IMG/VR virus record: IMGVR_UViG_3300027881_000013
Span: 1-62,438 of that record
DNA: 62,438 nucleotides
Strand: one strand, 5' to 3'
From: a virus
Lineage: Duplodnaviria > Caudoviricetes
Under the pieces are notes generated by a model. That model saw only the letters and a list, made by a program, of their open reading frames with translations, searched no databases and was not told the DNA's origin. Below, piece after piece: positions 21,166-61,345 of this stretch. The number at the start of each line of letters is the position of its first letter. Positions within the stretch are counted from its first letter, which is position 1. Position numbers and translations under genes: made by a program.

Positions 21166-21167
21166 TA

Positions 21168-21254
21168 TGGTGCCGGGAGCGGGAGTCGAACCCGCACACC
21201 CAAATAGATAAGGGATTTTAAGTCCCTTGCGTCTACCAATTCCGCCATCCCGGC
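21168..21254 (-). tRNA. tRNA-Leu (TAA)
   Basis: GCCGGGA acceptor, AGGGA-CTTAAAA-TCCCT anticodon arm, long variable arm, CCA. Confidence 0.95.
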
Positions 21255-21261
21255 TGGTCTA

Positions 21262-21639: not shown

Positions 21640-21640
21640 A

Positions 21641-21958
21641 CTACTTATCGCTTTTTTTGAGCAACTTCTCTAAAAATACAGGGGCAGGCGATTTTATATC
21701 TTTTAGCCCCTTACCTAATCTCTTATTTCCTTTGTACATAAAGTCATCAGAGTTCTTACTAATGAATTCATACTTAAATTCATAATTCTCGTTCTCATTT
21801 TTGGGATTCTCATTAAATAATCGAGCCTTTGTCCAGGATGGTATCATTTCTGCCATGCCAGCAGTCAGAAATTCGCACACTACACCACATTCATGACACC
21901 AGTATATTTTATAGCCCTCTGATGGCTCTTTGAGTAGTACTAACTTATGGACGTGCAT
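21641..21958 (-). CDS. Hypothetical protein
   Basis: ORF with CxxC. Confidence 0.55.
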   Translation of the reverse strand: MHVHKLVLLKEPSEGYKIYWCHECGVVCEFLTAGMAEMIPSWTKARLFNENPKNENENYEFKYEFISKNSDDFMYKGNKRLGKGLKDIKSPAPVFLEKLLKKSDK

Positions 21959-22012
21959 ATTTATTTATAAGAATAATTGACTGTCTGTTTATTATGTGTT
22001 AAGGTGTTTAAT

Positions 22013-22378
22013 ATGGCAAATAGATCACCACTAACAGACGGGCAACAAGCAATTTTTAAATTTGTTGTTGCATTCATTAGAGAAAATGGCTTTGGGCCAA
22101 CAATTAGGGAGATCCAGGGGGAATTTAATTACAGGTCATCTAATTCTGTTGTGATTCATCTTAATAATTTGAGGTCAAAAGGTTATATAACTAAATCAAG
22201 TACAAAAGATAAAATGAAAACCAGAACTATTAGATTGGTTGATGACATTATTGGTAACTATACTATTGATACCGGCTTCTTGAATAAAGCAATTAAAAAT
22301 TTAAAAGAACGTGGTTATGAGATTGAAGCTAACCTCGCGGTTGAATTCCTTAAAGAATTAAAAGTAAACATAGTTTAA
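22013..22378 (+). CDS. LexA-type winged-helix DNA-binding protein lacking the peptidase domain
   Basis: LTxxQxxIFxFxxxFIxENGFGPTIREI...SSNSVxxHLxxLxxKGYI; TTGACT-N17-TAAGGT promoter just upstream (leaderless). Confidence 0.85.
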   Translation: MANRSPLTDGQQAIFKFVVAFIRENGFGPTIREIQGEFNYRSSNSVVIHLNNLRSKGYITKSSTKDKMKTRTIRLVDDIIGNYTIDTGFLNKAIKNLKERGYEIEANLAVEFLKELKVNIV

Positions 22379-22455
22379 TGGTGGACCCTGTAGGAGTCGA
22401 ACCTACGACCAATCGGTTATGAGCCGATAGCTCTAACCAACTGAGCTAAGGGTCC
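22379..22455 (-). tRNA. tRNA-Ile2 (CAT, lysidine-type) rather than Met
   Basis: GGACCCTTAGCTCAGTTGGTTAGAGC...CTCATAA...GGTTCGACTCC...GGGTCCACCA resembles bacterial Ile2 tRNAs. Confidence 0.9.
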
Positions 22456-39559: not shown

Positions 39560-39895
39560 ATGTCTAACAGATTCATTGTCGTACTCGTTGATTACGTAGG
39601 CCGCAGAATTATTGGTGAAGCTATATCTGATACTGCTTTACCTATAATTAAAGTTAAGAACCCATTGATACTTAAGGAAGTAGTGGATCAGACTAATAAG
39701 TCTGTGCATTTAAGTATCTCTCCTATTTTTCATACTTTTGAAGTAACAGAGAAAGAAATTAAGTGGACTACTAAATTTATTGCAGATGAAGATCTTTCTA
39801 GTAGCTATGATCAGTTTGTTGAGCGTATCAGAGCTAAAAGAAATACAAATATAGAGGTGGTTGGGCAAATGCCAACTCCACAGGTAATCGGTTGA
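39560..39895 (+). CDS. Small beta protein, possible Sm-like fold
   Basis: GRRIIGE...IKVKNPLIL pattern. Confidence 0.55.
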   Translation: MSNRFIVVLVDYVGRRIIGEAISDTALPIIKVKNPLILKEVVDQTNKSVHLSISPIFHTFEVTEKEIKWTTKFIADEDLSSSYDQFVERIRAKRNTNIEVVGQMPTPQVIG

Positions 39896-41928
39896 CATCA
39901 GGGGTAAATAGTGGGGCTAGTAGCCTTAGAAATTCGATGGAGGCACTAGTTTCGCCCCTAACTACTACCCATAAGAAAAACAAGAAAGATATTGATAGAG
40001 ATTATTTAGTTCAACCTGCTCCTAATATCATTGAGTTTGTAGCCTCTCCACAATTTTTAAATGTTCCATCTGTCTATGAATATACTAGACAGTATCAGGT
40101 ACTAAGAGATTTCTTTCAATATCGATGTCCTATCTGTAATCCACTTAAACCAGAAGCTATTGATTGTTGGGATAAACCACGTTCATACTTAGAAGATGAA
40201 GTATTATTAATATGGTCAAAGAAGTATAATGAAGATGTCTGTCCTAAGTGTGGTTTAACTAGGACAGAGATGTTAACAGATAAAGCAATTGAGAGATATA
40301 ATCAGCTTCATGGTATTGTAGGAATGCGTTCTGGTAAGACCGCAACTGTTGGTCTTATGGGAGCATATTTAGAGCATCGACTTATTACTATTTCTCTTAA
40401 TCAACCAGATAGAAGATTGTCTTCTTATTTTGGTCTGTTACCCAAGCAGCCCTTTGAAGTAACATATATTGCATCAACTGAAGTCCAGTCTAATGATACT
40501 ATTTGGGCTTATTATAAGAATTTTAGATCAGATTCACCTTGGTTTAAACGCTATGTGGTCTGGGTAAAAACTCAAGAGAAAGAACAAGATACTCCAGTTG
40601 GTATGGAAAGATGGAAATATCAGGAGACAATTAGAGAAATTGAAAATGGTCATATGGGTGTAAAGTTCAACTCAAAGAACTCTAACTCATCTGGTCTTGC
40701 TGGTCGTACTCGTATTGGATCATTTATTGATGAATTAAGTCGCTTTAAGCAAACTGATTCGTCTATGGGTGCTGAAGAGTCCTATCGTGTTATGGAGAAC
40801 TCTTTACGTACTGTTCGCTCAGCAGTCTTAAATAAGACCTTGCTTGAGTGGTTTGGCTTGATGGTATCAATTTCATCTCCCATATCGATTGATGATAAGG
40901 GAATGGAATTACTTTATACGTCTACTAACATTAAAAGTATGTACTCATTCCATTATGCTACCTGGGAATTTAATCCCATGGAGAAGCGTGAATATTATGA
41001 TGAGGCTTACGAAAAGGATCCAGTAGGTACAGAACGTGACTTTGGTGCTAAGCCGCCATTATCTGCTAATCCACTAATTATTGATCCTACTCGATTTGAA
41101 AATGTTGCAGTAATGGACTCGTTGGAACCAACTGCTAGATTAGAAATTATTCCATTTATAGATAAAACTAATCAGCGCTATCATCGAGCCCATATGGTTG
41201 AATGTCAGCTGAAAAGAGATATGCCACGGTATATTTGTTTTGATGCTGGTCAAAATTTCGATTCATTTGCTGGTGCATGTGGTCATTTAGAAATTAGACA
41301 ATTACCTGATGATAAGATGGAGTATGTAACTATAGTAGATTGGGTAATGCGTGTTTTACCATCAAAAGATATGGATGTTTGGTTTGATTCTTGTATCGAT
41401 ATTATTGATTATCAAAAATCATACCAAAAAATAGCACAGGTTGAATTTGATAGATGGAATAGTGTTACTCTTATTCAGCAAATCAGAAATCTTGGAGTAA
41501 GAGCAGAACAAAAGACCATTAAAGCGGAAGATTATATTAAGTTTGTTTCGGATTCTCTTATGGGTAGAGTGCGATTACTACCTAAGGAACCTGACGATGA
41601 TAGTCTTGACCCGCCCTTTAAATCCGCTCAAGGTGTAGGCATATATGAAATTGAACGTCTCGAGAGGTCTATTGACGATAAGAAAGTATATAATCCGCAA
41701 AAGGGTAAAAGACGCGGCTATAATTCGGACGATGTTGCGGTTGTCTTAGTACACTTACATAAGATGTGTCAAGATTCACAAATTATGCCCACAGGTGTTA
41801 AATTACGTTCTAGAGAAGCAAGACTAAAACGTGAAGAGGTTGGTGGACAGCAGTATCAAATGGGTGGTCAGGGTAGACTTTTTAATCCGAATAGAGCAAT
41901 CGGTAATAATAGCAAGAGACGCTGGTGA
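39892..41928 (+). CDS. terL: Terminase large subunit
   Basis: Walker A GMRSGKT, Walker B SFIDE, ISSP coupling motif, nuclease ICFDAG / EFDRWNS / SDD; start uncertain. Confidence 0.92.
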   Translation: MTSGVNSGASSLRNSMEALVSPLTTTHKKNKKDIDRDYLVQPAPNIIEFVASPQFLNVPSVYEYTRQYQVLRDFFQYRCPICNPLKPEAIDCWDKPRSYLEDEVLLIWSKKYNEDVCPKCGLTRTEMLTDKAIERYNQLHGIVGMRSGKTATVGLMGAYLEHRLITISLNQPDRRLSSYFGLLPKQPFEVTYIASTEVQSNDTIWAYYKNFRSDSPWFKRYVVWVKTQEKEQDTPVGMERWKYQETIREIENGHMGVKFNSKNSNSSGLAGRTRIGSFIDELSRFKQTDSSMGAEESYRVMENSLRTVRSAVLNKTLLEWFGLMVSISSPISIDDKGMELLYTSTNIKSMYSFHYATWEFNPMEKREYYDEAYEKDPVGTERDFGAKPPLSANPLIIDPTRFENVAVMDSLEPTARLEIIPFIDKTNQRYHRAHMVECQLKRDMPRYICFDAGQNFDSFAGACGHLEIRQLPDDKMEYVTIVDWVMRVLPSKDMDVWFDSCIDIIDYQKSYQKIAQVEFDRWNSVTLIQQIRNLGVRAEQKTIKAEDYIKFVSDSLMGRVRLLPKEPDDDSLDPPFKSAQGVGIYEIERLERSIDDKKVYNPQKGKRRGYNSDDVAVVLVHLHKMCQDSQIMPTGVKLRSREARLKREEVGGQQYQMGGQGRLFNPNRAIGNNSKRRW

Positions 41929-41931
41929 TAC

Positions 41932-44376
41932 ATGGCTAAAGATTCTGCTGTAAATGTCGTCGACCATCCTGAGGATGGCGACGTTGGTGGTCGTGATCAA
42001 GTATCTTTCCCATCAGAGTTTCCTGCTGGTGAATTACCTGACGCAGAAGAAGCTGCTGCTGAAACTTTATATAAACGCCCACGACAAGCCAAAGTTTGGT
42101 TTATACGTGGTGATCTAGTAAAAATTAAAGATACTCCTGAAATGGGTGTGGGTTTTATTACTAAATATTTGCCTCGTGGCGACGAAAATAATACATACTG
42201 GCAAGTAGTATTTAATAATGAATTTTATAGAGTAGAAGACAGAAATTTAGAATTAGCAGGAGAAGATGAAACATATCAAGATGATAATTTTTATGGTAAA
42301 CATGCAACTAAAGAAAGTGAATCAAGACAAGCTAGTAGATTTCGTGAACTTTCTAAAGATTTAGCTCTTACTACTGTATATGAAGTAGATAAACTTTTTG
42401 ATTTACCATCTGGTTTTATAACTGGTGGATTATATTCTTATTATCTTAAGGGTTCGATGCCACATGCTGTAGATGTCATAAGACGTACTGTACAGAATGT
42501 TGATCATATTAGTGATGAACAGATATTAAGTATATTAAATGATGCATTACTTCAGATAGATAAAGTATTATATGGTAATCCACAATTTATAGAATATTTT
42601 GAAAAGAATAAAACAGCAGAATTAGGTCAAGGGCTTACACAGTTGACAACTGAACGTGAGCATGGTAAACCAAATTTAAATTTAACTGAACCTGCACGCT
42701 GGAATCAGTCATATACTGATGAAAATAGATTTGAAGATGCAGATGGTAAATTAGGTGACTCAGATGAAGATCATGGTACCCTCTCAGAAGATGTATACCC
42801 ACCATACACTGACGGAATTGGACAGCCCAATCCCAGATACGAAGACACAGACAAGAAGCGATTTGACATTGTGTTACATGCTTCCGAAGAAGAAAAAATC
42901 GACCCAAATGCGGGACCTGATTATATCTGGATCGCGGTAGATCTTGATGGCACTATTTTAGAGCCACCACCAGATAATCAGTATGAGTCAGAAACTGGTG
43001 AACACGTATTTGGTCAACCAATTGATGGTGCTAGAGAGGCACTACAAGAAATGGTTGATAGTGGTGCAGTAATATCAATTTATACTGCTAGACAATATTT
43101 TGCTGATGGTGATGATAAAGAAAATAAGCTAATTGAAGCTGTTCAAAATACGTTAGATGAGCATGAAATTCCGTTTACCGATGTTTATGTCGGTAAAAAA
43201 CCACCAGCTCATTATTTTATTGATGATAAGGGAGTCTCTTTTACTGGTGATTGGGGTATGGTAATGGACACCATACGAGACCAATTAGAAAAGACTGCTA
43301 ATGATCCTACTAAGGCGATTAAAGATTATCAAGGTATAAAGATGGATGTGGAGTGGCCGAAAGGTTCAATTCGGTCATATGAGGGTAGTGATACCTATGC
43401 TACCCATATGAAATGCGACTATGGTTATGCTGCCGGTGTTGAAGGTAGCGATGGTGAAGAACTTGATATTTATCTAGGTCCTGAAGATACCGAAATTGCC
43501 TATGTTATTGAGCAGATGAAAGATGATGGTTCATACGACGAAGATAAAGTAATGCTTGGTTTCGCATCTGAAGAGGATGCGACTGAGATGTTTTTACAAC
43601 ATATGCCAGCCTATATGCTAGGTGAAATACGTGCTGTTCCAATTGAAACATTATACAATGCCTTATATGGAGAGCCTGAAGATCGTCGCGGTCAAGATGA
43701 TATAGTGCCTAGTGAAGAAAAGACTGCTGAAGATAAAGCTAAAAGGCGCAAGAAAAAGAAAACAGTTAAGACTAAATCTGATTATGTTGGCCCACAAAGT
43801 TCTCAGAGTGGTGGTATAGGTTTAGGTGGTGGGCCAGCAGGAGATATTGAAGCTGATAGTGATAAAGAATCTGCACAACAAAATTTAGCATGGAAAGCAA
43901 TAAATTCTCTTAATAATCCTGAGATGGTTTTACTATTAAGTGATCCACAATATGTAAAAATTGACATAACCAAAATGGATAAGGGTCCTGAAGAGGTGCA
44001 AAGTTTAATTGATGGTATCTCAAGTACAATGGTTGCTGATCCAGAATTTGAAGAGAAGATAGAATCAATTGTTGGATCAGATCCAGGTATTACTATGAGT
44101 GTCCATCCCAAATCAGATTTAACTTTTAATGAGCAAAGATTATTTTCTTCACCAGCAGAAGAAATACAATTATTAGAAGAAAGATCACTTGAACTTAAAA
44201 ATCAACAGAAAAAAGAAGAAGAAATGCCTCTTGTAAGTCCAGAAGAATTCGAACAAATAGCTACTAAGACATGGCCTGAAGACGATCCTATGGAGAATGA
44301 ATTTACTGATGGGACTGAGGATAGAGAAAATAGAGATATACCTCGTCCACCAGAAACAGAAAAAGCGAAGTATTAG
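41932..44376 (+). CDS. Polyvalent head protein: SH3-like + HAD phosphatase + inorganic-pyrophosphatase-like domain
   Basis: IAVDLDGT...IYTAR...KPPAHYFIDDK; EWPKGSIRS...DYGY...GSDGEELDIYLGP...DEDKVMLGF. Confidence 0.8.
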   Translation: MAKDSAVNVVDHPEDGDVGGRDQVSFPSEFPAGELPDAEEAAAETLYKRPRQAKVWFIRGDLVKIKDTPEMGVGFITKYLPRGDENNTYWQVVFNNEFYRVEDRNLELAGEDETYQDDNFYGKHATKESESRQASRFRELSKDLALTTVYEVDKLFDLPSGFITGGLYSYYLKGSMPHAVDVIRRTVQNVDHISDEQILSILNDALLQIDKVLYGNPQFIEYFEKNKTAELGQGLTQLTTEREHGKPNLNLTEPARWNQSYTDENRFEDADGKLGDSDEDHGTLSEDVYPPYTDGIGQPNPRYEDTDKKRFDIVLHASEEEKIDPNAGPDYIWIAVDLDGTILEPPPDNQYESETGEHVFGQPIDGAREALQEMVDSGAVISIYTARQYFADGDDKENKLIEAVQNTLDEHEIPFTDVYVGKKPPAHYFIDDKGVSFTGDWGMVMDTIRDQLEKTANDPTKAIKDYQGIKMDVEWPKGSIRSYEGSDTYATHMKCDYGYAAGVEGSDGEELDIYLGPEDTEIAYVIEQMKDDGSYDEDKVMLGFASEEDATEMFLQHMPAYMLGEIRAVPIETLYNALYGEPEDRRGQDDIVPSEEKTAEDKAKRRKKKKTVKTKSDYVGPQSSQSGGIGLGGGPAGDIEADSDKESAQQNLAWKAINSLNNPEMVLLLSDPQYVKIDITKMDKGPEEVQSLIDGISSTMVADPEFEEKIESIVGSDPGITMSVHPKSDLTFNEQRLFSSPAEEIQLLEERSLELKNQQKKEEEMPLVSPEEFEQIATKTWPEDDPMENEFTDGTEDRENRDIPRPPETEKAKY

Positions 44377-44385
44377 GGGAAATAA

Positions 44386-46803
44386 ATGGCCATCGTACCT
44401 GGTAAAAAATATGGTGATGTGAGGAAACAAGCTGATATGCCTCATGGTCTCACAGTTAATACCATTGAGGCACTTGGTGACAGGATGGAAGAATTCCTTC
44501 CTGGTCTATCAAGTAGTCAGGGGCAAGCATCTAGTCAATTCTTTAATGGTCTATTGCCAGATGGGGCTGAATTAGATCCGCGATTACAGAGAACTGCCAA
44601 TATTACTAAGCAAGCTAACTGTCCTACAGGTACAACTTTCCCAGGATTTTCTAATAATCAAAATACGCAGATGACGCCACAGCGTCCCTATCAACCTGAA
44701 TTTGAATCACCAGATAGGCAACAGTATCCTGTACACAGAATCCTCGCTAATAGATATTGGAGATTATTTTATAAACTCGATCCTGTAATTGGTAATTGTA
44801 CTGATATGTTCGCTACAATGCCCTGGTCTAATTTCCAGCTTACAGGAGAGGGGGTATCAGGCGAGATCAAAGAGGCGTTTGAAACGATGTGCCAAGAAAC
44901 GCAAGTCTTGCGTATTCTTGAGTATATGGTACGTGAGTTTTTGGTCATTGGAGAGGCTGTACCACATTGCTTCTTTGATGAAACTAAGGGTATCTGGTCT
45001 TATATTGCTCTGCATAATCCTGATCAATTAGAAGTAATAGATGCCCCATTTATAAAAATGGACCCAGTAGTTGAATTTATCCCCGATGATAGGCTACGGT
45101 CTGTATTAACGTCAAATAATAGCCTATTAAGACGTGTTCGTGACCAGATGCCTCCAGAGTTAATCTCGAGGCTAGTTGCACGTCAAAATATTCCACTTAG
45201 TCCCATAAATATGACCTTCATTCCACGAAGGCTCCATCCATATGATACCAGAGGCACATCTATTATTAGTCGTATGTGGCGCATCTTAATGTATGAGGAT
45301 GGAATTTATAATGCCAGCATAGCTACTGCTCGTCGGCATGCTGGACCAATCAAGGTAGCCAAACTTGGTAACCCCCAGACTGGTTGGATTCCTTCACAGG
45401 AACATGAACGCCGCTTACTCCAACTTCTTGCTCAGGCTGAGCTCGATGTCAATGCATGGTTAGTATACCACTATGGTATTAATTTTGAGATGGTTGGTAC
45501 TACTGACCGGATTATGAATATAGCCCAGCATCATGATGTAATTGAACGTATTAAACTTGTAGCCATGGGAATTAGCAAATCTTTCCTTCATGGTGAAGTT
45601 ACTTATGCATCTTCAGTTACCGGTCTTTCAGTCTTCTTACAAAGACTGCGGGCTATGCGTGATTTCTTTGTTAATACCTGGTTATTACCTAAATTCTTTA
45701 AACCGATCGCTCAGATTAATGGTTGGGTAAAACGAGATAAGGGTGAAATTAATCATAGATATAGAATTAAGAGATCCCAGAAGCAGATAGAAGCAGAGAA
45801 TCGTTGGATTATTCCTAAGATTGAGTGGGAAAAACAATTAGACCATACTATTAACTCAGAGCTAGTAACTGCCATGCAGTCGCTCGAGCAAATGGGAATT
45901 AAGTTCTCTAAGACAACTAAGTATGCTGCTGTTGGTAAAAAATTTGAAGATGAGATTAATAAGATTGCTGAAGAGCAAGAATTAGAAAATACAATGAAGC
46001 ATTATGTTAAAGATGAACCACCTTCTGGTGATGAGGCAGGTGGAGCAAAACCACCCATACCTGGTGGTGGTGGGATGGGTGTAAAACCGACTGCACCAAG
46101 ATCTCCGCCTGCTGGTATGCCTGGTGGCGGTGGTATGCCTGGTACTACTCCTGGCAACACAGGTCCAACCCCCGGTGGGCCTGGTGGTATGGGTACACCA
46201 CCTCCTGGTGGTGGAATGATGGGAAATTCTGATAAGGATGCTGATGGTGGTGGTACAGGACCATCTGGTAGGAAAGATCCAGCAATTATAGATGCCGACT
46301 CTGATATTTATGATCAAAAGGGAAGACTTAATAAAGGAACACAACCTATTTGGGGTGCATCAGAAATTGAAGAATTAAAAGAATTATTATTAAATGGTAA
46401 CACTAAATCACCATTCTGGGAAGAAATAAATGGTCCGGAATTAAGTTCTGCCATTGCAGCCTCTGATACAGATGAGGTAATGGAAATCATAGCTAGACAT
46501 GCAATGGACTATGGCTATGTTATGTCTGATATTAAACTTTTAGAAAAAGCATTGGAAAAGGAGGGAATATTTGCTCAAATAGCTACAGGTGATACTGCTT
46601 TAATTAAAATAGAAGAGCAGATGCCTGATGATACTGGTTCGCTTAACGATGCTACCATGATGGATAGAATGTCTTCTTACATCGATGGCAGTACGCCTGA
46701 AATAGTAACATTAAACAAGTCAAGTAATCTACTGGTAGGTCATGGTAATGAGAGTGGTGAGAGTGCATTAAACGGTGATATTAGTGGTATTCTAGATAAA
46801 TAG
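44386..46803 (+). CDS. Portal protein
   Basis: Position between terminase and protease; DPVIGNCTD, REFLVIGEA, RGTSII, IKVAKLG; Gly/Pro-rich tail. Confidence 0.88.
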   Translation: MAIVPGKKYGDVRKQADMPHGLTVNTIEALGDRMEEFLPGLSSSQGQASSQFFNGLLPDGAELDPRLQRTANITKQANCPTGTTFPGFSNNQNTQMTPQRPYQPEFESPDRQQYPVHRILANRYWRLFYKLDPVIGNCTDMFATMPWSNFQLTGEGVSGEIKEAFETMCQETQVLRILEYMVREFLVIGEAVPHCFFDETKGIWSYIALHNPDQLEVIDAPFIKMDPVVEFIPDDRLRSVLTSNNSLLRRVRDQMPPELISRLVARQNIPLSPINMTFIPRRLHPYDTRGTSIISRMWRILMYEDGIYNASIATARRHAGPIKVAKLGNPQTGWIPSQEHERRLLQLLAQAELDVNAWLVYHYGINFEMVGTTDRIMNIAQHHDVIERIKLVAMGISKSFLHGEVTYASSVTGLSVFLQRLRAMRDFFVNTWLLPKFFKPIAQINGWVKRDKGEINHRYRIKRSQKQIEAENRWIIPKIEWEKQLDHTINSELVTAMQSLEQMGIKFSKTTKYAAVGKKFEDEINKIAEEQELENTMKHYVKDEPPSGDEAGGAKPPIPGGGGMGVKPTAPRSPPAGMPGGGGMPGTTPGNTGPTPGGPGGMGTPPPGGGMMGNSDKDADGGGTGPSGRKDPAIIDADSDIYDQKGRLNKGTQPIWGASEIEELKELLLNGNTKSPFWEEINGPELSSAIAASDTDEVMEIIARHAMDYGYVMSDIKLLEKALEKEGIFAQIATGDTALIKIEEQMPDDTGSLNDATMMDRMSSYIDGSTPEIVTLNKSSNLLVGHGNESGESALNGDISGILDK

Positions 46804-46898: not shown

Positions 46899-47027
46899 AT
46901 GTTTCATAAAACAGGTAAAACCACTACCTTAGGGGTATTGAAAAAAGACAAAGACAAAGATAAAACTGATAAAAAGCCAAAAGATAAAACTGATAATAAA
47001 GATAAGAAAGATCAAGTAAAACAATGA
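46899..47027 (+). CDS. 42-aa Lys/Asp-rich peptide (MFHKTGKTTTLGVLKKDKDK...)
   Basis: GAGG RBS; ATGA overlap with protease. Confidence 0.6.
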   Translation: MFHKTGKTTTLGVLKKDKDKDKTDKKPKDKTDNKDKKDQVKQ

Positions 47028-49744
47028 CGTTTATTAAGACTGCAGCAGTCCAGACTATTGCTGTCGCTGTGTTTGAGGACAACAGACTAACAAAGTCTGC
47101 TGCCTATGACGAAGATAGCACTAGTGAGTTTCTTAATGAACGTAAACCCATTGATATTAAAGCCGCGTTAGAGATCGTAGCTTCTGAATACGATATCTCA
47201 AGTAATCCCTCAGATTATATTTTTGAAGCAATTAGAGGGAACACAGCTAATGTACCTAATGAAAATAAAGACGCTTTCCATAAACATGAATTATTAAGAT
47301 TTGATGGTCGTTTAGGTAAGCAAGTCTATCGTACCTACGAAAACAAGCCCCACCACATTAACCATAGAGCGGAAAACCCCAAGAATGCTAGGGGTTTTAT
47401 TGTTGATGCTCATTATAATGACTCAACTCCTGCACTCGATGAATGTTCAAATCCAAATTGTGGCAATAAAACTGCTTCTGAAGAGGAACGAGATCCTGAA
47501 ACTGGCATTCACTGCAGAAAGTGTGGTGAGGTAGTTAAAGATGAATTCGTTGAGCTTCTTGTTGCAATAGATACTAAGAAAGATCCGACATTCGCTCGAG
47601 GCGTACAGGCTGGGATCCTTAAACATGGATCTATGGGCTGTTCATGCCTACGTACGAGATGTAATGTTTGTAATAAAGTTGCCTATAGTAGAAACGAATT
47701 TTGTGATCATATTAAAAATAAAGGTAAAGCTTACGATGAATCCGAACCTGGATTCAATCCTATTGCCTTTGTAATTGAGTATGGGAAAGACAAAACTGCT
47801 AAGGTAGCTAAGAAGATCGCCAAAGCCTATGAGTGGTGTGAAGGTGTCATCTACGACGAATATAGTCGTGTACATGACCCAGCAGATACAAAAGCTGAGC
47901 AATATGAAATTCTTCAGCTAAGTGCGAAGGTTGCTCAGTTAACTAGCGAAGATCAGCTGCAAAATGAATCTGACATACTAATACTTAGTCAAAAGGTAGC
48001 CGATCTCGAGAGGCGGGTGGGGGAGAAACTAAGCAAGGTAGCTCAGGCTACGCCTGAAATACCTGCCATGCCTCCCCCACCGCCTGGCTTACCTGGTCCA
48101 GGTTCTGCTGCACCAGGTCCCGTTGCGCCAGGTTTAGAGGATCCAACGTTAGGCTTAGAGGGTCCTCCACCTGAAGAAGATAAGAGTGAGGGTGGAGTAA
48201 CCGTCATTATAAATGCTGGGCCAGAAGGTGTAGAAGTCGAATCTCCCCAGCTTGAAGAAACAGCACTTGATAATAAGTCTATTGATGACTTACTGCCGGA
48301 AGATGTGAACGCCACACCTGCTGGTGTTGGTGAGATGATGTCACCAGCTGCTATGGGGCTTGAAGAGGGTCCTAAGGCTGTTCCGCCTAAACTTGGAAAT
48401 AAAGAAACCTCTGGAGGTTCCCCGATGCTTCGTTTTGCAGAGTCATACAAGCATTTAAAGGCGGAGATTACTAGCGCTGGTAATGTTCGCGTTTTTGATG
48501 CTGACGGTACCTTATTTGTTGTTAAGCCCGATAGTGTTGATACTAGCAAGGTTGCCAGTGTTGAGCCAGAGGATCTGGCTAAGAACGTTCTTACCACAAT
48601 CGCTCAGTATGGTGTTGGTACCGCTATCAATATGACCAGGGCTATTGTTGGTCCGCGTCTTGCTCAAGTCTTACAGTATTATCATGACGATATGACCGGT
48701 GTTGATCGTGGTGAGCCCACCGCACCAGTTTCTGGTGACGGCGATACAGATGCTAAGGATAAGCCTGCATCGCCTGACGATTCAGTTACTGCTGGTGGTG
48801 CTGACTCTGATCGTAAAGATGAATATGATAATACTGTCACGCTCAAGGACGATGCACTAAGTGATCGTGACTCCGATCTTGAAGATGAGCAAAACGATCG
48901 AGATCCTAATAGTCTGTCTACTGGTGATGATGAGGATTCTGACATGAAAGAAAAGCGTAAGGACTGGAGTTTGAGTCAGAGCGCTGTTGATGATGTCAGT
49001 ACCGATATGAAGAATGCTGCTAAGGACAAGAAGGACAAGAAGGACAAGGATTGTAAGAAATGCAAGTGTGATCCTTGCAAGTGTGATAAAGAGAAGAAGG
49101 CTGAAGCTTACGATATCAAGCAGCATGCTTCTAGAATCGAAACTCTCTATAAGGGTCGATTAGCTCAGAAGGTTGCAGAGCTTGAGGATGAGAAGAAGCA
49201 GTTCGTTAGTAATATGGCTGACAGGTTCGCCAGAGCCATCAAGCTCGTAGCTAAGCGGCAAGCTCTCAATCTCGAGTATTCTCCGATGAAGACTGCGATG
49301 GGTATTGCTCTCTGTAATCCTATGCCACTTGGTGAGGGTTATGAATACGCACCCATGGATCAGAAAACTGCAGTTTCTGTTGTAGAGGCCGCATTTACTA
49401 GTCCAATTATCGAGGGTACTGATAAGCCAGCTTGGGAAGCTTTTGTTGATGGTCTTATCGAACGTGCTGGTTCGGTTATGGAGTGGAATGATGAGACCTT
49501 AATGCAGGTTGAGGCAGACTTAGGTAATATTAAGACTGCTGCGGTTCCTTTGGATGAGTCCGCTATCGCAGTAGAAACTACTGGTAATGTGCAACTTCGG
49601 CAGGCTATGGCCAATGGTAATCTTCAGTTGAATCCGACTGAAGATGCTGGGCCAAAGACTGAGGCTGCTGGTGATAAACGAACAGCCATCAGAGATGCTG
49701 TAGGTGTAACGAAGGTGGCTGGTTTAGCCAATCTTGGGAGATAG
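47024..49744 (+). CDS. Prohead protease fused to scaffold, with zinc-ribbon inserts
   Basis: NENKDAF...EL, INH, ARGFIVDA, VELL, GSMGC; acidic and coiled-coil C-terminal half; precedes capsid genes. Confidence 0.85.
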   Translation: MTFIKTAAVQTIAVAVFEDNRLTKSAAYDEDSTSEFLNERKPIDIKAALEIVASEYDISSNPSDYIFEAIRGNTANVPNENKDAFHKHELLRFDGRLGKQVYRTYENKPHHINHRAENPKNARGFIVDAHYNDSTPALDECSNPNCGNKTASEEERDPETGIHCRKCGEVVKDEFVELLVAIDTKKDPTFARGVQAGILKHGSMGCSCLRTRCNVCNKVAYSRNEFCDHIKNKGKAYDESEPGFNPIAFVIEYGKDKTAKVAKKIAKAYEWCEGVIYDEYSRVHDPADTKAEQYEILQLSAKVAQLTSEDQLQNESDILILSQKVADLERRVGEKLSKVAQATPEIPAMPPPPPGLPGPGSAAPGPVAPGLEDPTLGLEGPPPEEDKSEGGVTVIINAGPEGVEVESPQLEETALDNKSIDDLLPEDVNATPAGVGEMMSPAAMGLEEGPKAVPPKLGNKETSGGSPMLRFAESYKHLKAEITSAGNVRVFDADGTLFVVKPDSVDTSKVASVEPEDLAKNVLTTIAQYGVGTAINMTRAIVGPRLAQVLQYYHDDMTGVDRGEPTAPVSGDGDTDAKDKPASPDDSVTAGGADSDRKDEYDNTVTLKDDALSDRDSDLEDEQNDRDPNSLSTGDDEDSDMKEKRKDWSLSQSAVDDVSTDMKNAAKDKKDKKDKDCKKCKCDPCKCDKEKKAEAYDIKQHASRIETLYKGRLAQKVAELEDEKKQFVSNMADRFARAIKLVAKRQALNLEYSPMKTAMGIALCNPMPLGEGYEYAPMDQKTAVSVVEAAFTSPIIEGTDKPAWEAFVDGLIERAGSVMEWNDETLMQVEADLGNIKTAAVPLDESAIAVETTGNVQLRQAMANGNLQLNPTEDAGPKTEAAGDKRTAIRDAVGVTKVAGLANLGR

Positions 49745-49792
49745 GGACGGGGGCGTTCCCCCCCACAACAAACTACCAATTGGAGGTAGAAA

Positions 49793-50587
49793 ATGGGTTC
49801 TGTAGGTTTAGATAGCCCCCGTCTTGGGGCGTTCCAGTCGGATGTTTTTCCGCGAGGAATGGATCTCGGTCGTTGTGTTATTCTTCAAGATGTCGGCGTC
49901 TATCGTGCAGCTGATGCTGCCGATTTTGAGCAGGGCATGTTGGTGGCACAGGATGCAACTGGTAACTTGATCAAGGCTGTAAGTAAGCATGTACTTGGCG
50001 TTGCTAAGTGGAACAAGACTAGTGTCTATACTGCTGCGGTGGTTGATGAAGTTATCAGCTTCCCCACGGTTACTGCCACTGTAGAACTTGCTCACGCGAC
50101 GGTAAGTAATCTCAAGGCTAATACCGCTGCCGATCAGGGTGGTTCTGCGTTAGCAGTAACCACTGATTATACGCTGAACGCTACCAATGGTACGATGACG
50201 CGTGTTGATCCCGGTGGTGGTGGTCTCATAGTTGGCGCGGCCACCTATGTTTCTTACACCTACGATCTGGCTACCAGAGATCTGGATTTCCAGGGTCGTA
50301 ACTTCTTCAATTTCACGGATGATGTTAGTATCGCCGATGGCAGAATCACGGTTGTTACCGACGCCTCGATTCTGTTTACGTCGATGTATGACACTTCCCA
50401 AAACAATTACGCTCTTACTGGTACTGGTAAGAACCTGTATTGTGGTGGTAACACCGCAGCGCTCGCAGGTCTTTTCACTACCGATAGTGGCGAGGGTGAT
50501 TTTGTCGGTCACGTGATGCAGCTGCCAACCGCTGATGACCCGTTCCTCGGCGTACGTCTTGGTGGCGATCCTGTTGCCGTAACCTGA
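49793..50587 (+). CDS. Head decoration / cement protein
   Basis: Between scaffold and MCP; GRITV...T.MYDTS, C-terminal PTADDPFLGV. Confidence 0.75.
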   Translation: MGSVGLDSPRLGAFQSDVFPRGMDLGRCVILQDVGVYRAADAADFEQGMLVAQDATGNLIKAVSKHVLGVAKWNKTSVYTAAVVDEVISFPTVTATVELAHATVSNLKANTAADQGGSALAVTTDYTLNATNGTMTRVDPGGGGLIVGAATYVSYTYDLATRDLDFQGRNFFNFTDDVSIADGRITVVTDASILFTSMYDTSQNNYALTGTGKNLYCGGNTAALAGLFTTDSGEGDFVGHVMQLPTADDPFLGVRLGGDPVAVT

Positions 50588-50600
50588 TAGCCCAGCAATG

Positions 50601-50626
50601 AGGGGCGGGGAAACTCGCCCCTCTTT
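50601..50626 (+). terminator. GC-rich hairpin between decoration and capsid genes
   Basis: GAGGGGCGGG-AAA-CTCGCCCCTC-TTT. Confidence 0.5.
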
Positions 50627-50663
50627 AAGGTAGATAAAAGAAACGTTAAATTAGGAGAAAAGA

Positions 50664-51872
50664 ATGAGCGTAGTCAACCCTTATAAGCGCCTTGCTGCGG
50701 CTGGGGCCGAGACGCCTCCGCCTAAGGGCGTGGAAACCCCAACCATCGAGCGTCATGCTAGCAAGCAAGATGAGCAGCACTTTGATGCTGATGGTAAGTT
50801 TAACCCCACCGCATATGCTGGTGAGGTTACTCGTGACGGCGTACGTCAGGCAGTGGGTAACACCAATCTGTCGAATCGTATGTTCGATAAGACCGGCGAA
50901 GTCAACGCCTATGACGACAAGGATGCTTTGCAGCAGGTAGCGTATCTGCTTCAAAATGTCACTCGTAAGGCGTCTCCGGGCACCTTCTATCGTGAAGCTT
51001 CGAATCAGATGGATGCGGAAGATCGCCGCAAGGTTCTCGCTGCGGCGATGACCGATCCTACTGGTGAAGGTTTCGCGATTGTTGGCCAGGAGCTCTTGCT
51101 TCCGATCAAGGACATCGTGGATTACGAGGGCTGGGCTCGTAAGCTTTACCGCGTACGTCCCTTGGCTCAGGGTGAGCTTTTCCGCATCGCGAAGGACGTC
51201 CGCGCTACCGCATGGGTAGTCGGTCAGGATGGTCAGTCCATTGAGTCCAGACTCCATGGTCGGTTCATTCAGCCTTCGGAGTTCAAGGTAACCGCATTCC
51301 CCACCGTGGACATCGAGGACATCTATCAGATGAACTACGATGTTCTCGATCGCGCTCAGGACACTGCTCGGCAGGAGATTGAGCTCGAAGAGGACAAGCG
51401 TGGCCTCGCGCTTCTGGATAGAGCGGCGCAGACTGTCAATGCGGAAACCATCTTCACTACGCTGGGCATCTCGGCGTTTGAGGATGTTCGCTTCCAGGTT
51501 GAGCGTCATCGCCTCATGGTTGAGAAGTTCTTTATCAACCGTGCCGAGCTTTCTGATGTCGTGAAGACGATGAGTGCGGCTGTTGATCCGGTAACCGAGC
51601 GCGAGTTAATCCTCGCCGGTTATATCGGCAACATCCTCAATGCTCAGATCATCACTGCGGCTGGTACCGGTGTTGAGGAAGTCGTACCTGCGGGTACCTT
51701 CTACGCCGTCACCGGCAGTGAGTACCTCGGCGAGATGGGCGTACGTGTTGAGCTCTTCAGTGAGCCCTTCAACATGTTCAGCCATCGTCGCCTGGTCAAG
51801 GGATGGGCATTTGGCGAGATCATCGGCTTCGGTATTCCGAACCCGAGAGCGGCAGCCAAGGGCCGGAAGTAG
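50664..51872 (+). CDS. Major capsid protein (HK97 fold)
   Basis: Synteny; PIKDIVDYEGWARKL...LAQGEL...DIYQMNYDVLDRAQD...EED; ends EIIGFGIPNPRAAAKG; strongly biased codons. Confidence 0.9.
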   Translation: MSVVNPYKRLAAAGAETPPPKGVETPTIERHASKQDEQHFDADGKFNPTAYAGEVTRDGVRQAVGNTNLSNRMFDKTGEVNAYDDKDALQQVAYLLQNVTRKASPGTFYREASNQMDAEDRRKVLAAAMTDPTGEGFAIVGQELLLPIKDIVDYEGWARKLYRVRPLAQGELFRIAKDVRATAWVVGQDGQSIESRLHGRFIQPSEFKVTAFPTVDIEDIYQMNYDVLDRAQDTARQEIELEEDKRGLALLDRAAQTVNAETIFTTLGISAFEDVRFQVERHRLMVEKFFINRAELSDVVKTMSAAVDPVTERELILAGYIGNILNAQIITAAGTGVEEVVPAGTFYAVTGSEYLGEMGVRVELFSEPFNMFSHRRLVKGWAFGEIIGFGIPNPRAAAKGRK

Positions 51873-51893
51873 TAACTAGCCTTCTAGGCATCT

Positions 51894-51933
51894 AGCCCGG
51901 TAGATCAGTTCCACCACTGGTCTACCGGGCTTT
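51894..51933 (+). terminator. Intrinsic terminator after MCP
   Basis: AGCCCGGTAGATCAG/CTGGTCTACCGGGCT stem then TTT. Confidence 0.7.
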
Positions 51934-52075
51934 ACCTCTGTTTAACAGATTTACCTCTGTTTAACAGAGAGGTCGCAAATGCGGCAAATAAACTGTTCCT
52001 TCTAACATGGTGTTAGAACAGAACATGGTGGGTTAAATTCCCGCATCCTCGGCAAGGATGCAAATGGATTGAGGG
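51931..52075 (+). ncRNA. Multi-hairpin RNA upstream of RRXRR-domain gene
   Basis: 19-nt tandem duplication 51931-51968, then hairpins GTCGC/GCGGC, TTCTAACA/TGTTAGAA, GTGGG-TTAAATT-CCCGC, GCATCCT/AGGATGC. Confidence 0.45.
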
Positions 52076-52087
52076 ACTGCTCTGTGT

Positions 52088-53038
52088 ATGGGCAAGCCAT
52101 CTCAGGATGTGGTATTGGTAGTAGATTCCGAGAAGAGATTCTTGGAGTACATCCATCCTGGAAGGGCGCGAAGGCTGTTAAGAGAGAAGAAAGCCAAAAT
52201 TCACTCGAGGCGACCCTTTGCAATTATGCTCTTCAAGACAGTATCGGCCTCCTCAATCAGGAGAAGAAAAGTTATGCCAATTCCTAGAAACTTCACTGAA
52301 TTCTTCAAAGAAGAGCGAGACATTTACGTACAGAATCTCGCAAATGCACAAGTCTCGTGCGAATTTCCGATAGCTCCAAATCGGAATGAAGGGTTTCTGT
52401 TTTCAAATAACAGAGATCCGGTAAACCTCACACAGTTCATACCCTTTGACGCCATCAAAGCATCCATGGACTTCAGAAAGATGTTGAGTCGCCGCCCGCC
52501 GGCACTCCAACTTCTTACTGAAGAAGAGTACAATGCATATTTTGCCGGTAAGGCAAAAAATTCCAATATGATGGATACTGATGGTAAGCCGGATGTTGAT
52601 GCAGCTATTGATGCTTCTGAGGAGCGTCGTCGTCGTACCTCTGATAGAAACATGCGGGAGCCAGTTGCTGCTAGTGCCCCAGAACCCATTCATGAGGTTA
52701 TTGAGAAGGGTTCTGGTCCTGGTGGTGCTGCTCGTTTTGGTGAAAGAAATCGCGTAGCGCATAATGACGTTGTTGGTGAGGATGAGGTTATTAATCCTCG
52801 AGTGCTTCACTTCTGTAATCAGGTTAAGGCTGAGATTGAAGAATCTGAGCGTATGCCTGCTGCTGAACTGTTAGAATCGCTGCAGGACATTCCTGATCTG
52901 GGTCTTGATGATTTTGAGCATATTCGAGCTCATGCGTATTACAAGACTGTAAAGAAGTGGGCCCAAAAGCAAGCGGCAGAGTTGGTCTCTCATGAGATGG
53001 ATGATGAAGCTGAAGAGGCGTCTATCGCACAGGACTAA
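52088..53038 (+). CDS. RRXRR (IscB PLMP-type) domain fused to virion-type protein; internal start at 52274
   Basis: VLVVDSEKRFLEYIHPGRARRLLREKKAKIHSRRPFAIML; second RBS AGGAG before MPIPRNF. Confidence 0.75.
   Translation: MGKPSQDVVLVVDSEKRFLEYIHPGRARRLLREKKAKIHSRRPFAIMLFKTVSASSIRRRKVMPIPRNFTEFFKEERDIYVQNLANAQVSCEFPIAPNRNEGFLFSNNRDPVNLTQFIPFDAIKASMDFRKMLSRRPPALQLLTEEEYNAYFAGKAKNSNMMDTDGKPDVDAAIDASEERRRRTSDRNMREPVAASAPEPIHEVIEKGSGPGGAARFGERNRVAHNDVVGEDEVINPRVLHFCNQVKAEIEESERMPAAELLESLQDIPDLGLDDFEHIRAHAYYKTVKKWAQKQAAELVSHEMDDEAEEASIAQD

Positions 53039-58765: not shown

Positions 58766-61344
<2,579 letters not shown>

Positions 61345-61345
<1 letters not shown>

What the first reader, a model, noticed from the sequence alone, without database searches (positions are those of the whole stretch)
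41932..44376. Polyvalent enzyme between terminase and portal with domains flanked by the putative cleavage motif
Seen: VLHA|HAD phosphatase (DLDGT...TAR...K...IDD)|EKTA|pyrophosphatase-like domain (PKGS.R, DYGY, DG..LD, DE.K.MLGF)|EKTA. Known: this pyrophosphatase-like domain occurs in polyvalent proteins of phages and plasmids thought to be delivered into the host. Inference: two phospho-hydrolases are released in the head and injected, possibly acting on nucleotide signals or RNA/DNA ends.
Basis: partly seen in the sequence, partly recalled or inferred. Interest (0 to 1): 0.7.

Follow-up and report, generated by a model that had tools for sequence, protein, structure and literature searches.

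The report
Phage head-gene multi-enzyme cargo polyprotein
A phage gene lying between the DNA-packaging and portal genes encodes one long protein that strings a phosphatase and a pyrophosphatase-like enzyme together through short conserved Lys-x-Ala joints, so it is probably loaded into the virus head, cut into separate enzymes and injected, although neither cutting nor packaging has been shown.

Summary
The ORF is real (41932..44376, +, 814 aa) and lies between the large terminase and the portal. Both enzyme domains are confirmed. The InPase domain matches Pfam PF18823 (E 7e-26). The capless HAD phosphatase has all four catalytic motifs invariant in 24 relatives and a HAD fold (Z 11.4 to BT0820).

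The two EKTA motifs sit in the low-confidence linkers on either side of InPase. 'VLHA' is conserved but is not the same motif.

About 30 metagenomic relatives share one chassis: a conserved leader, mid-segment, HAD, InPase and C-tail. Variable cassettes (2H phosphoesterase, GGACT, DUF5661, kinase, pentapeptide, GNAT) sit in fixed slots. [KR]-x-[A/S/G] precedes the first conserved block in 27 of 27 and InPase in 25 of 30. TerL-polyprotein-portal order holds in 9 of 9 contigs.

Cutting by the prohead protease, packaging and ejection are inferred, not shown. The unbiased tripeptide scan did not survive multiple-test correction.

It is a new variant of Iyer's polyvalent proteins. The scan holds notes on similar polyproteins in other phage genomes, none on this DNA.

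The parts
41932..44376 (+). Whole polyvalent ORF, 814 aa
   Evidence: P0001
41932..42090 (+). Conserved acidic N-terminal leader, aa 1-53, ending R51-Q-A53; predicted disordered
   Evidence: consensus and invariant N8, D11, P31, R51; pLDDT <50 for aa 1-60; [KR]x[ASG] at the leader end in 27 of 27 relatives
42091..42618 (+). Orphan insert cassette in slot A, aa 54-229: small beta domain (aa 61-110) plus helices (aa 127-229), ending N-K-T-A
   Evidence: no match in 36 family proteins. Among 1.84 billion representatives the only other hit is a repetitive surface protein, judged spurious. No Pfam hit. Model
42610..42618 (+). Junction motif K227-T-A229
   Evidence: block pLDDT 43
42619..42918 (+). 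Conserved, predicted-disordered acidic mid-segment, aa 230-329; includes V-L-H-A at aa 314-317 (nt 42871-42882)
   Evidence: 34-87% identical in 27 of 36 family proteins; pLDDT <50 for aa 225-329
42919..43290 (+). Capless HAD-type phosphatase domain, aa 330-453
43291..43299 (+). Junction motif K454-T-A456 between HAD and InPase
43300..43680 (+). InPase (PF18823) pyrophosphatase-like OB-fold domain, aa 457-583
43720..43728 (+). Junction motif K597-T-A599 after InPase
43729..43854 (+). Lys-rich then Gly-rich linker, aa 600-641; its middle block recurs in 11 further proteins of the 37 scanned; predicted disordered
43855..44220 (+). Helical C-terminal module, aa 642-763; no family assigned
   Evidence: model. 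Partial similarity in the relatives listed. The weak STI1 DP hit is below its cut-off
44221..44373 (+). Conserved acidic C-terminal tail, aa 764-814; predicted disordered
   Evidence: a similar C-terminal end in Rctr197k_045
39892..41928 (+). Large terminase (upstream neighbour)
   Evidence: phrog_17415, 2e-57
44386..46803 (+). Portal (downstream neighbour); R-T-A at aa 69-71
   Evidence: phrog_16240, 1.4e-77
47024..49744 (+). Prohead protease fused to a scaffold-like region, 906 aa, with 7 [KR]TA and 8 KVA motifs: the proposed processing enzyme
   Evidence: phrog_18299, 6.8e-25 at aa 35-131. No PDB or Pfam protease match by sequence
50664..51872 (+). Major capsid protein
   Evidence: phrog_2522, 1.3e-56

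Best explanation
The gene encodes a cargo polyprotein of the phage head.

Shown: the chain holds four folded modules, namely an orphan beta-plus-helical insert, a capless HAD phosphatase with an intact catalytic set, an InPase pyrophosphatase-like domain and a helical module. These are joined by disordered segments. Three of the joints carry K-T-A. The chain belongs to a family built on one chassis (leader, mid-segment, HAD, InPase, tail) with fixed slots that take different enzyme cassettes. The gene always lies between TerL and the portal.

Inferred: the conserved leader and/or tail bring the chain into the procapsid. The phage's prohead protease, whose own scaffold-fused ORF is crowded with the same motif, cuts at [KR]-x-[A/S] joints and frees the enzymes. 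The enzymes leave the head with the DNA. Early in infection the HAD and InPase domains remove phosphate and pyrophosphate groups from a nucleotide-like signal, a sugar or nucleotide phosphate, or damaged RNA ends.
For: Domains: InPase E 7.1e-26. HAD by PHROG 1.4e-15, profile-to-PDB 5.5e-4 and fold Z 11.4. The catalytic residues of both domains are invariant or at least 90% conserved in 24 relatives.

Linkers: in the aa 321-600 model the segments under pLDDT 50 are aa 451-457, 480-491 (a loop inside InPase) and 592-600; the first and last hold the two EKTA sites. The whole-chain model puts all three KTA sites in or at low-confidence linkers.

Motif excess: 3 against 0.27 in this ORF (P 0.0014). 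The protease-scaffold ORF has 7 against 0.68 (0 of 5000 shuffles). In the Rctr197k counterpart, which shares only the HAD domain (48% identity) and short end segments, the count is 7 against 1.6 (0 of 5000). One of those sites lies directly before its HAD domain and one lies about 15 residues before the start of its GNAT match (aa 1765). The codons at the sites vary, so this is a protein-level motif.

Junction grammar across relatives: [KR]x[ASG] directly precedes the first conserved block in 27 of 27. It directly precedes InPase in 25 of 30. It follows HAD in 19 of 19 and follows InPase in 24 of 29. Background is 2.25% per position. The middle residue varies while K/R and A/S/G are kept. Inserted cassettes carry the motif at both ends.

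Head context: the order o519-TerL-polyprotein-portal holds in 9 of 9 distinct contigs carrying the family.

Precedents: InPase lies in the unmodelled C-terminal part of the Pa193 portal. Iyer 2017 predicts packaging and processing of polyvalent proteins. Processing by the prohead protease is documented at several sites in SPN3US, and multi-site proteolysis of virion proteins is reported in PaBG, a relative by capsid and terminase trees.
Against: No cleavage product, virion proteome or transcript was examined, so packaging, cutting and ejection are all unobserved.

The motif was defined after looking at the data. The unbiased tripeptide scan gives only P 8.5e-5 before correction, at rank 18. 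The loose form [KR]xA occurs 7 times in the ORF, 5 of them in or touching linkers that make up 41% of the chain, which is not significant.

The relatives are homologous, so the counts of 27 of 27 and similar are not independent events.

The Rctr197k protease-scaffold has only 2 [KR]TA. The middle residue at the junctions does not visibly track the one favoured in each phage's own scaffold.

The protease assignment rests on one PHROG match; nothing was found in PDB or Pfam.

HAD has no motif at its N-terminal side, only the unrelated V-L-H-A.

In PB1-like phages InPase is part of the portal chain, which could mean a role inside the head rather than in the host.

Residue-by-residue equivalence of the InPase acidic residues with cellular PPases was not checked.
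Confidence: 0.5

Rival explanations
1. It is an unprocessed minor head or portal-accessory protein. The chain stays whole in the virion, like the PB1-type portal-InPase fusion or a MuF-type anchor. On this reading the [KR]-x-A joints are only conserved linker ends, or the seams at which cassettes recombine.
For: InPase is covalently part of the portal chain in Pa193, at residues 640-730 within the unmodelled stretch 529-765. Iyer 2017 notes that some polyvalent proteins, such as the N4 virion RNA polymerase, are packaged unprocessed. Both ends of every cassette carry the motif, which recombination at short shared seams would also produce. The loose motif is not significantly linker-biased.
Against: The strict motif is crowded in the protease-scaffold ORF (7 against 0.68) and occurs near the portal N-terminus, both typical places for maturation cuts. 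K/R and A/S/G are kept while the middle residue and the codons drift, which points to selection on the peptide rather than on a DNA seam. No MuF or portal domain is detected in the chain.
Confidence: 0.25
2. It is a non-virion late enzyme. The HAD and InPase domains would work in the infected cell during head assembly, for example clearing pyrophosphate or sugar or nucleotide phosphates for DNA synthesis or modification. The gene would sit in the head block only by co-expression.
For: The nearest HAD folds include nucleotidases and a phage sugar-diphosphate phosphatase that the PDB title assigns to phage HY126 (AfhF, 9iqw, Z 10.2). Iyer 2017 lists clearing of PPi as one possible InPase role. 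No direct virion evidence exists.
Against: The TerL-polyprotein-portal position is conserved in 9 of 9 contigs. Long conserved disordered leader, mid and tail segments are not needed by a soluble enzyme. Cassette content typical of injected polyvalent proteins (2H, pentapeptide, GNAT, kinase) fits conflict effectors better than metabolism. PHROGs label InPase-bearing relatives as minor head or virion proteins.
Confidence: 0.15
3. The junction motif is a chance or compositional pattern without function, and the protein is simply a two-enzyme fusion.
For: The unbiased tripeptide scan is not significant after correction. The motif was chosen after seeing the data.
Against: There is independent excess in the Rctr197k counterpart. 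There is position-specific conservation at four junctions across about 30 relatives. All three KTA sites coincide with predicted linkers.
Confidence: 0.05

Closest known systems
Polyvalent proteins of phages and conjugative elements, InPase-bearing phage type (Iyer, Burroughs, Anand, de Souza, Aravind 2017, PMC5512222)
   Same: Several unrelated enzyme domains lie in one chain of a terminase-portal phage, encoded among virion genes. The same InPase domain (PF18823) is present. Relatives carry 2H, GNAT, kinase and pentapeptide modules. Packaging, processing and delivery are predicted for that class.
   Different: No peptidase domain lies in the chain, whereas Iyer proposes in-chain zincin-like or C-terminal assemblin-like peptidases. 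Processing would be in trans at a short junction motif. A fixed chassis with a conserved disordered leader, mid-segment and tail has defined cassette slots. The words phosphatase, haloacid and polynucleotide kinase do not occur in the main text of that paper (supplements not seen). No MuF, LPD or PBECR domain was found.
Virus Rctr197k gene Rctr197k_045 (KX853510.1), the closest deposited phage
   Same: It holds the same place between terminase and portal (portal 56% identical). The HAD domain is 48% identical. The leader and C-terminal end are similar. [KR]TA is in excess, 7 against 1.6.
   Different: It is 2175 aa with no InPase hit, and it carries a GNAT plus many unassigned modules. The record annotates it only as a misc_feature although the frame is open.
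PB1-like phage portal with C-terminal InPase (Pa193 gp19, PDB 9b41; BcepF1.124 cited by Iyer 2017)
   Same: The InPase domain is homologous (E 1e-11 alone, 1.4e-19 with the family profile). It is tied to the portal vertex.
   Different: There InPase is fused to the portal chain and was not seen in density (residues 529-765). Here it is in a separate gene upstream of the portal, paired with HAD.
Head cargo processed by the prohead protease: T4 internal proteins and Alt (gp21, Leu/Ile-x-Glu), phiKZ and SPN3US ejection proteins (gp175 and gp245, Ala-x-Glu-type)
   Same: A short motif is shared by scaffold, protease and cargo. Leader-like propeptides are present. Several cuts fall in one chain, as in SPN3US gp53 with at least three sites (the T4 and phiKZ motifs are recalled).
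   Different: The motif is different, with Lys/Arg at P3 and a small residue at the proposed P1. The cuts would free whole enzymes from one chain rather than only trim propeptides. Nothing is shown experimentally. Recalled, not tested: herpesvirus assemblin, a distant relative of prohead proteases, also cuts after Ala.
Capless HAD phosphatases: BT0820 (2obb), 1xpj, 5'(3')-deoxyribonucleotidases, T4 Pnkp 3'-phosphatase, GmhB, phage AfhF
   Same: The fold matches (Z 11.4 to 8.5) and all four HAD motifs are present.
   Different: Scores are far below every NCBIfam equivalog cut-off, for example 21 bits against 165 for BT0820. The substrate class cannot be assigned, because Z values of nucleotidase, RNA/DNA-end and sugar-phosphate enzymes are tied.

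Membership tests
Pfam PF18823 InPase (polyvalent-protein pyrophosphatase) | Score above the Pfam gathering threshold | tested here: met
   91.1 bits against 26.8, aa 461-574; 24 of 24 relatives also match
Pfam PF18823 InPase (polyvalent-protein pyrophosphatase) | Family I PPase-like OB fold | tested here: met
   Foldseek hits to family I PPases (3ld3, 3sw5, 3emj, 4z70, 1qez and others), E about 1e-3, prob 0.9-1.0. TM-scores are low because the query held two domains. The VIA list was filled by HAD, so it gave no second look
Pfam PF18823 InPase (polyvalent-protein pyrophosphatase) | Conserved acidic metal-binding residues (four, per Iyer 2017) | tested here: inconclusive
   D512, D536 and E537 are invariant, and D507 and D538 are at least 90% conserved in 24 relatives. 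Equivalence to PPase catalytic residues was not aligned residue by residue, because no PPase was hit by sequence
Pfam PF18823 InPase (polyvalent-protein pyrophosphatase) | Lacks the beta-hairpin between strands 1 and 2 (Iyer 2017) | not tested
   The model has a low-confidence loop at aa 480-491. No explicit comparison was made
HAD superfamily phosphatase | Motif I DxDx(T/V), motif II S/T, motif III K, motif IV acidic pair | tested here: met
   D337, D339, T341, S382, K423, D431 and D432 are invariant, and T385 is at least 90% conserved
HAD superfamily phosphatase | Rossmann-like HAD fold | tested here: met
   2obb Z 11.4 (rmsd 3.0, 111 aligned); 3bwv Z 10.8; 1ltq Z 9.7; Foldseek prob 1.0
NCBIfam BT0820 family (NF046079), EcbF-BcbF (TIGR01689), HAD-IIIA (TIGR01662), DNA 3'-phosphatase (TIGR01664) | Score above the curated cut-off | tested here: not met
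   21.0 against 165; 21.4 against 162; 17.4 against 44.6; 12.5 against 107.65
Polyvalent protein in the sense of Iyer et al. 2017 | Two or more unrelated effector-type domains in one chain of a terminase-portal phage, among virion genes | tested here: met
   HAD plus InPase plus two unassigned folded modules, between TerL and the portal
Polyvalent protein in the sense of Iyer et al. 2017 | In-chain processing peptidase (zincin-like or assemblin-like); common but not obligatory | tested here: not met
   No peptidase family in Pfam or PHROGs for this chain
MuF / SPP1 gp7 minor head protein | MuF domain | tested here: inconclusive
   No Pfam MuF hit in the chain or in the 24 relatives. The unassigned helical module was not folded alone
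Prohead-protease substrate (head cargo polyprotein) | Shares a short motif with the phage's own protease or scaffold, placed in linkers | tested here: met
Prohead-protease substrate (head cargo polyprotein) | Observed cleavage and presence in virions | not testable with these tools
   Uncultured phage; no proteome available

The most novel reading that the evidence does not exclude
The family is a natural plug-in delivery chassis. A conserved disordered leader, mid-segment and tail carry the signals for loading into the procapsid and for exit through the tail. Three or four fixed slots, each bounded by a [KR]-x-A protease site, accept any enzyme cassette, including orphans such as the 176-aa insert here. 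One gene next to the portal would thus let this phage lineage swap its injected arsenal by cassette exchange. The HAD-InPase pair would be the constant core that disarms a phosphorylated host signal.
Probability: 0.3. Interest if true: 0.7.

Novelty: new variant of a known kind. Interest (0 to 1): 0.5.

Why it matters
If the joints are cut and the pieces injected, this family shows a simple rule for how phages load and release several enzymes from one gene: a conserved leader and tail plus Lys-x-Ala joints. That rule can be tested directly by virion mass spectrometry. It would give a constant HAD-InPase pair whose substrate could point to a host signal or repair step that phages must neutralise at entry. 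It would offer a natural template for loading foreign proteins into phage heads. It also adds a HAD phosphatase, and several modules with no known family, to the repertoire of polyvalent proteins. If the chain is not processed, it is an ordinary new member of the polyvalent proteins.

Tried and rejected
1. Identity of the 176-aa insert. There was no match in the 36 other family proteins and no Pfam hit. A HMMER scan of 1.84 billion representatives gave only the protein itself and one repetitive surface protein (E 2e-6, four stretches), which I judge spurious. The ESM Atlas gave scores of 0.80 or less with only a DUF4314 lead at 0.78, which I did not use.

2. C-terminal module. The only hit was a weak STI1 DP match (22.9 bits against 29.1), which I did not use.

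3. Protease class. The first 340 aa of the protease ORF hit nothing relevant in PDB, only a zinc-ribbon likeness to eS31, and only zinc-ribbon families in Pfam. The protease's fold class and specificity therefore could not be tied to a studied enzyme.

4. Co-variation of the junction's middle residue with the residue favoured in each phage's own scaffold. No clear pattern appeared.

5. Experimental support from Leptospira phage LE1, whose gene LE1-0025 has HAD plus InPase and is labelled 'tail protein'. The LE3/LE4 proteomics paper (PMC6078989, passages read) says nothing about it.

6. The PaBG paper (PMC7412058, passages read) reports multi-site proteolysis of virion proteins but gives no motif.

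7. A sequence route from InPase to cellular PPases found no PDB PPase even at E 10.

8. The VIA second look covered only the HAD domain. The BFVD search of the whole model gave only InPase and HAD relatives and nothing for the insert or the C-module.

9. Complex prediction was not used, because I had no single well-founded partner for the leader or the tail.

10. Searches for print on the junction motif turned up no description of a Lys-x-Ala prohead-protease motif or of this family. The searches were made, plus passages from PMC5512222 and PMC10052503.
Full report
OBSERVATION

It starts 4 nt after the stop of the large terminase gene (39892..41928; phrog_17415, E 2e-57). It ends 9 nt before the portal gene (44386..46803; phrog_16240, E 1.4e-77). 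Downstream lie a 906-aa ORF whose N-terminal part matches a head-maturation protease PHROG (phrog_18299, 6.8e-25) and the major capsid protein (50664..51872; phrog_2522, 1.3e-56). The whole assembly held for this window is the window itself, one contig of 62,438 bases. It is a piece of an uncultured tailed phage. The closest deposited relative is Virus Rctr197k (portal 56% identical). An IMG/VR contig has a portal whose best segment is 83-94% identical.

THE TWO ENZYME DOMAINS

The pyrophosphatase-like domain is Pfam PF18823 InPase, aa 461-574, E 7.1e-26, 91.1 bits against a cut-off of 26.8. It also matches the C-terminal part (residues 640-730) of the portal gp19 of Pseudomonas phage Pa193, PDB 9b41. 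That match has E 1e-11 for the single sequence and 1.4e-19 for a family profile.

The HAD domain (aa 330-453) matches phrog_1238 (1.4e-15) and, weakly, phrog_415, labelled polynucleotide kinase. NCBIfam HAD models hit far below their cut-offs. A profile of 24 relatives hits the HAD structures 1xpj (5.5e-4) and 2obb.

An AlphaFold model of aa 321-600, built on 15 aligned sequences, has mean pLDDT 75.9. Foldseek matches its first half to BT0820 (2obb), 1xpj, GmhB and the phage sugar-diphosphate phosphatase AfhF. It matches the second half to a long list of family I inorganic pyrophosphatases. VIA-align gives HAD Z 11.4 for 2obb (rmsd 3.0, 111 aligned), 10.8 for a deoxyribonucleotidase-like protein, about 10 for 5'(3')-deoxyribonucleotidases and 9.7 for T4 polynucleotide kinase/phosphatase. 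These values are tied, so the substrate class is open.

In the alignment of 24 relatives, the HAD motif residues D337, D339, T341, S382, K423, D431 and D432 are invariant. The InPase residues E474, R481, Y497, D512, D536, E537 and K539 are invariant, and D507 and D538 are at least 90% conserved. Both domains therefore look catalytically competent. I did not align the InPase residues one by one with a cellular PPase.

A whole-chain model (mean pLDDT 60.8) divides the protein as follows:
- a disordered leader (aa 1-60);
- a small beta domain (aa 61-110) and a helical part (aa 127-229);
- a long disordered stretch (aa 225-329);
- HAD (aa 330-453);
- InPase (aa 457-583);
- a disordered Lys-rich and Gly-rich linker (aa 606-641);
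- a helical module (aa 642-717, plus a helix at aa 741-763);
- a disordered tail (aa 765-814).

Residues 54-229 are an insert. It is absent from all 36 other family proteins. It has no Pfam family. Its only other hit among 1.84 billion representative proteins is a repetitive surface protein, which I judge spurious.

THE MOTIF

[KR]-T-A occurs three times in the ORF: K227, K454 and K597. All three lie in or at low-confidence linkers at domain borders. It is conserved, since the pattern is present at the matching place in 24 of 24 aligned relatives, and it lies in the disordered stretch before HAD, but nothing else supports a cut there. HAD therefore has a motif only on its C-terminal side. The nearest upstream site is K227-T-A229, about 100 residues earlier.

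Shuffle tests give 3 against 0.27 expected (P 0.0014) for this ORF and 7 against 0.68 (0 of 5000 shuffles) for the protease-scaffold ORF. The portal, terminase and four other large ORFs show no excess, and the terminase hit is its Walker A motif. Across the window there are 17 hits in 12,541 aa of ORFs from 24193 onward, and none in 7,040 aa of ORFs before that. About 2 would be expected in the early block, so the zero is not significant by itself. The codons at the 17 sites differ, so this is a peptide motif and not a DNA word.

A caution applies: the motif was picked after seeing the data. In an unbiased scan of all tripeptides in the structural block, KTA (13 against 3.5, P 8.5e-5) ranks 18th. 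It comes behind 15 Gly-x-Thr repeat words, KKK and PSG, and it would not survive correction for about 8000 words.

RELATIVES GIVE THE STRONGER ARGUMENT

A word-indexed search returned 37 proteins, the query included. About 30 share long stretches with the query. All 24 that I aligned have InPase. Four have a 2H/LigT phosphoesterase, three have DUF5661 and two have GGACT. Others carry an AAA_33 kinase or pentapeptide repeats, and the Rctr197k counterpart has a GNAT.

The shared order is:
1. leader;
2. slot A;
3. conserved mid-segment;
4. HAD;
5. slot B;
6. InPase;
7. slot C;
8. often a Lys-rich and Gly-rich block;
9. slot D;
10. conserved tail.

At the junctions:
- The three residues directly before the first conserved block are [KR]-x-[A/S/G] in 27 of 27.
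- The three residues directly before the InPase start fit in 25 of 30 by my strict rule. Of the five misses, P0013 has K-I-A before a variant start that my pattern missed. P0009 and P0011 have the motif one residue off. P0010 and P0027 lack K/R in the printed triplet.
- A motif follows HAD within a 15-residue window in 19 of 19.
- A motif follows InPase in 24 of 29.

The last two are loose tests, because chance alone would give roughly 3 in 10. The background is 2.25% per position. The middle residue varies (T, Q, K, E, S, V, I, N, L, R, H) while the flanks are kept. Where a cassette is inserted, the motif stands at both of its ends. These proteins are homologous, so the counts are not independent events. 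Even so, keeping K/R and a small residue while the middle position drifts is what selection on a recognition site would give.

The 2175-aa counterpart in Rctr197k shares only the HAD domain (48% identity) and short end segments with the window protein. It has 7 [KR]TA against 1.6 expected (0 of 5000 shuffles). Three sit in one low-complexity linker. One lies directly before its HAD domain. One lies about 15 residues before the start of its GNAT match at aa 1765.

Against this, its protease-scaffold has only two such sites. I also saw no co-variation between a phage's junction residues and those of its scaffold.

CONTEXT

The order o519-TerL-polyprotein-portal holds in all 9 distinct contigs that carry a family member and enough flank: L001, L002/L005, L003, L004 and L006-L010. 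L012 carries a HAD-InPase pair at the end of a different polyvalent protein (PBECR3, DdrB-ParB), and Leptospira phage LE1 gene 0025 starts with the same pair. BFVD also holds phage proteins of 429 and 445 aa that align over more than 300 columns. The pair is thus a recurrent unit. It is also separable, because Rctr197k_045 has HAD without InPase and my HAD motif I pattern was not found in a few relatives.

A search among longer proteins found one more family member (1539 aa) and many classical giant polyvalent proteins with InPase. None carried a portal Pfam domain.

WHAT IS KNOWN

Iyer et al. 2017 (PMC5512222; passages read) defined polyvalent proteins and the InPase domain. They noted its lack of the beta-hairpin of cellular PPases, its restriction to phage-type polyvalent proteins and its fusion to portals. 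They proposed hydrolysis of a nucleotide-like signal or of PPi, and argued that such proteins are packaged and processed into units. The processing they proposed is by in-chain zincin-like peptidases or, rarely, C-terminal assemblin-like peptidases. The words phosphatase, haloacid and polynucleotide kinase do not occur in their main text; I could not see their supplementary files.

The Pa193 paper (PMC11456595; passages read) modelled portal residues 94-528 and saw no density for 529-765, which holds InPase.

SPN3US work (PMC10052503; passages read) documents 14 prohead-protease sites in nine head proteins, with at least three in one propeptide.

PaBG is placed near Rctr197k by capsid and terminase trees. 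It shows multi-site proteolysis of virion proteins (PMC7412058; passages read).

That herpesvirus assemblin cuts after Ala, and the T4 and phiKZ motifs, are recalled and not tested here.

EXPLANATION AND ODDS

I take the domain composition as settled (about 0.95). I put head association at about 0.7, cutting at the joints by the prohead protease at about 0.55, and ejection with action in the host at about 0.45. The whole chain of inference stands at 0.5.

The main rival is an unprocessed head or portal-accessory protein whose joints are only linker or recombination seams (0.25). Next comes a non-virion late enzyme (0.15), and then a meaningless motif (0.05).

NOVELTY

The kind is known: polyvalent proteins, and head cargo trimmed by the prohead protease. 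The new elements are:
- the fixed chassis with a conserved disordered leader, mid-segment and tail;
- the defined cassette slots bounded by a Lys/Arg-x-small-residue joint;
- the absence of an in-chain peptidase;
- the constant HAD-InPase core;
- the position between terminase and portal.

My few word searches found no description of these.

The scan's own notes list eight similar 'effector polyprotein with cut-site linkers' findings on other phage genomes. One of them has a [KRHV]-[TQE]-A-[AS] linker. None are on this genome or on look-alike sequence. These are unchecked notes, and I did not test them.

Noticed in passing
window 58766..61345 (+): An 859-aa ORF consists largely of collagen-like Gly-x-Thr triplets (TGP, TGQ, TGL and similar). 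These are the 15 most over-represented tripeptides in the structural block and explain the GC-rich stretch at 58-62 kb. It is probably a fibre protein.
   Followed up: partly
L003 8798-14728; L007 11957-15415; L008 3098-6883 and 10582-14085; L010 3534-6731: In four related contigs the portal and/or terminase reading frames match the window's proteins in pieces separated by about 1.1-1.6 kb. This suggests introns, inteins or homing-endonuclease insertions in these head genes. The window's own genes are uninterrupted.
   Followed up: no
window 47024..49744 (+): The protease-scaffold ORF has a Cys4 zinc-ribbon insert at about aa 140-170, with one K-T-A inside it. It has 8 K-V-A in addition to 7 [KR]-T-A. 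Its first 340 residues match no PDB or Pfam protease by sequence.
   Followed up: partly
window 48001..52000: The end of the scaffold gene, the 264-aa ORF and the capsid gene are GC-rich (0.48-0.53 against about 0.37-0.39 in flanking head genes). The capsid protein is 97% identical to that of contig L002, while neighbouring proteins are 75-88% identical.
   Followed up: no
window 52088..53038 (+): A 316-aa ORF directly after the capsid gene has an N-terminal HNH endonuclease match (phrog_2214, 6.8e-7).
   Followed up: no
window 21091..22455 (-): Three tRNA genes (Glu-TTC, Leu-TAA, Met-CAT) lie at the switch between the minus-strand and plus-strand gene blocks.
   Followed up: no
L001 2971..9498 (KX853510.1 46139..52666): Rctr197k_045 is annotated only as a misc_feature 'similar to hypothetical protein', but it is an uninterrupted 2175-aa ORF with GNAT and HAD domains. 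The terminase (044) and the protease-scaffold (047) are likewise open frames annotated as misc_features.
   Followed up: partly
window 50664..51872 (+), aa 1-102: The capsid protein's PHROG match starts at aa 76. An R-K-A triplet lies at about aa 100-102, which could be a maturation site of the same loose type. PaBG's capsid protein is reported to lose about 20% of its mass.
   Followed up: no
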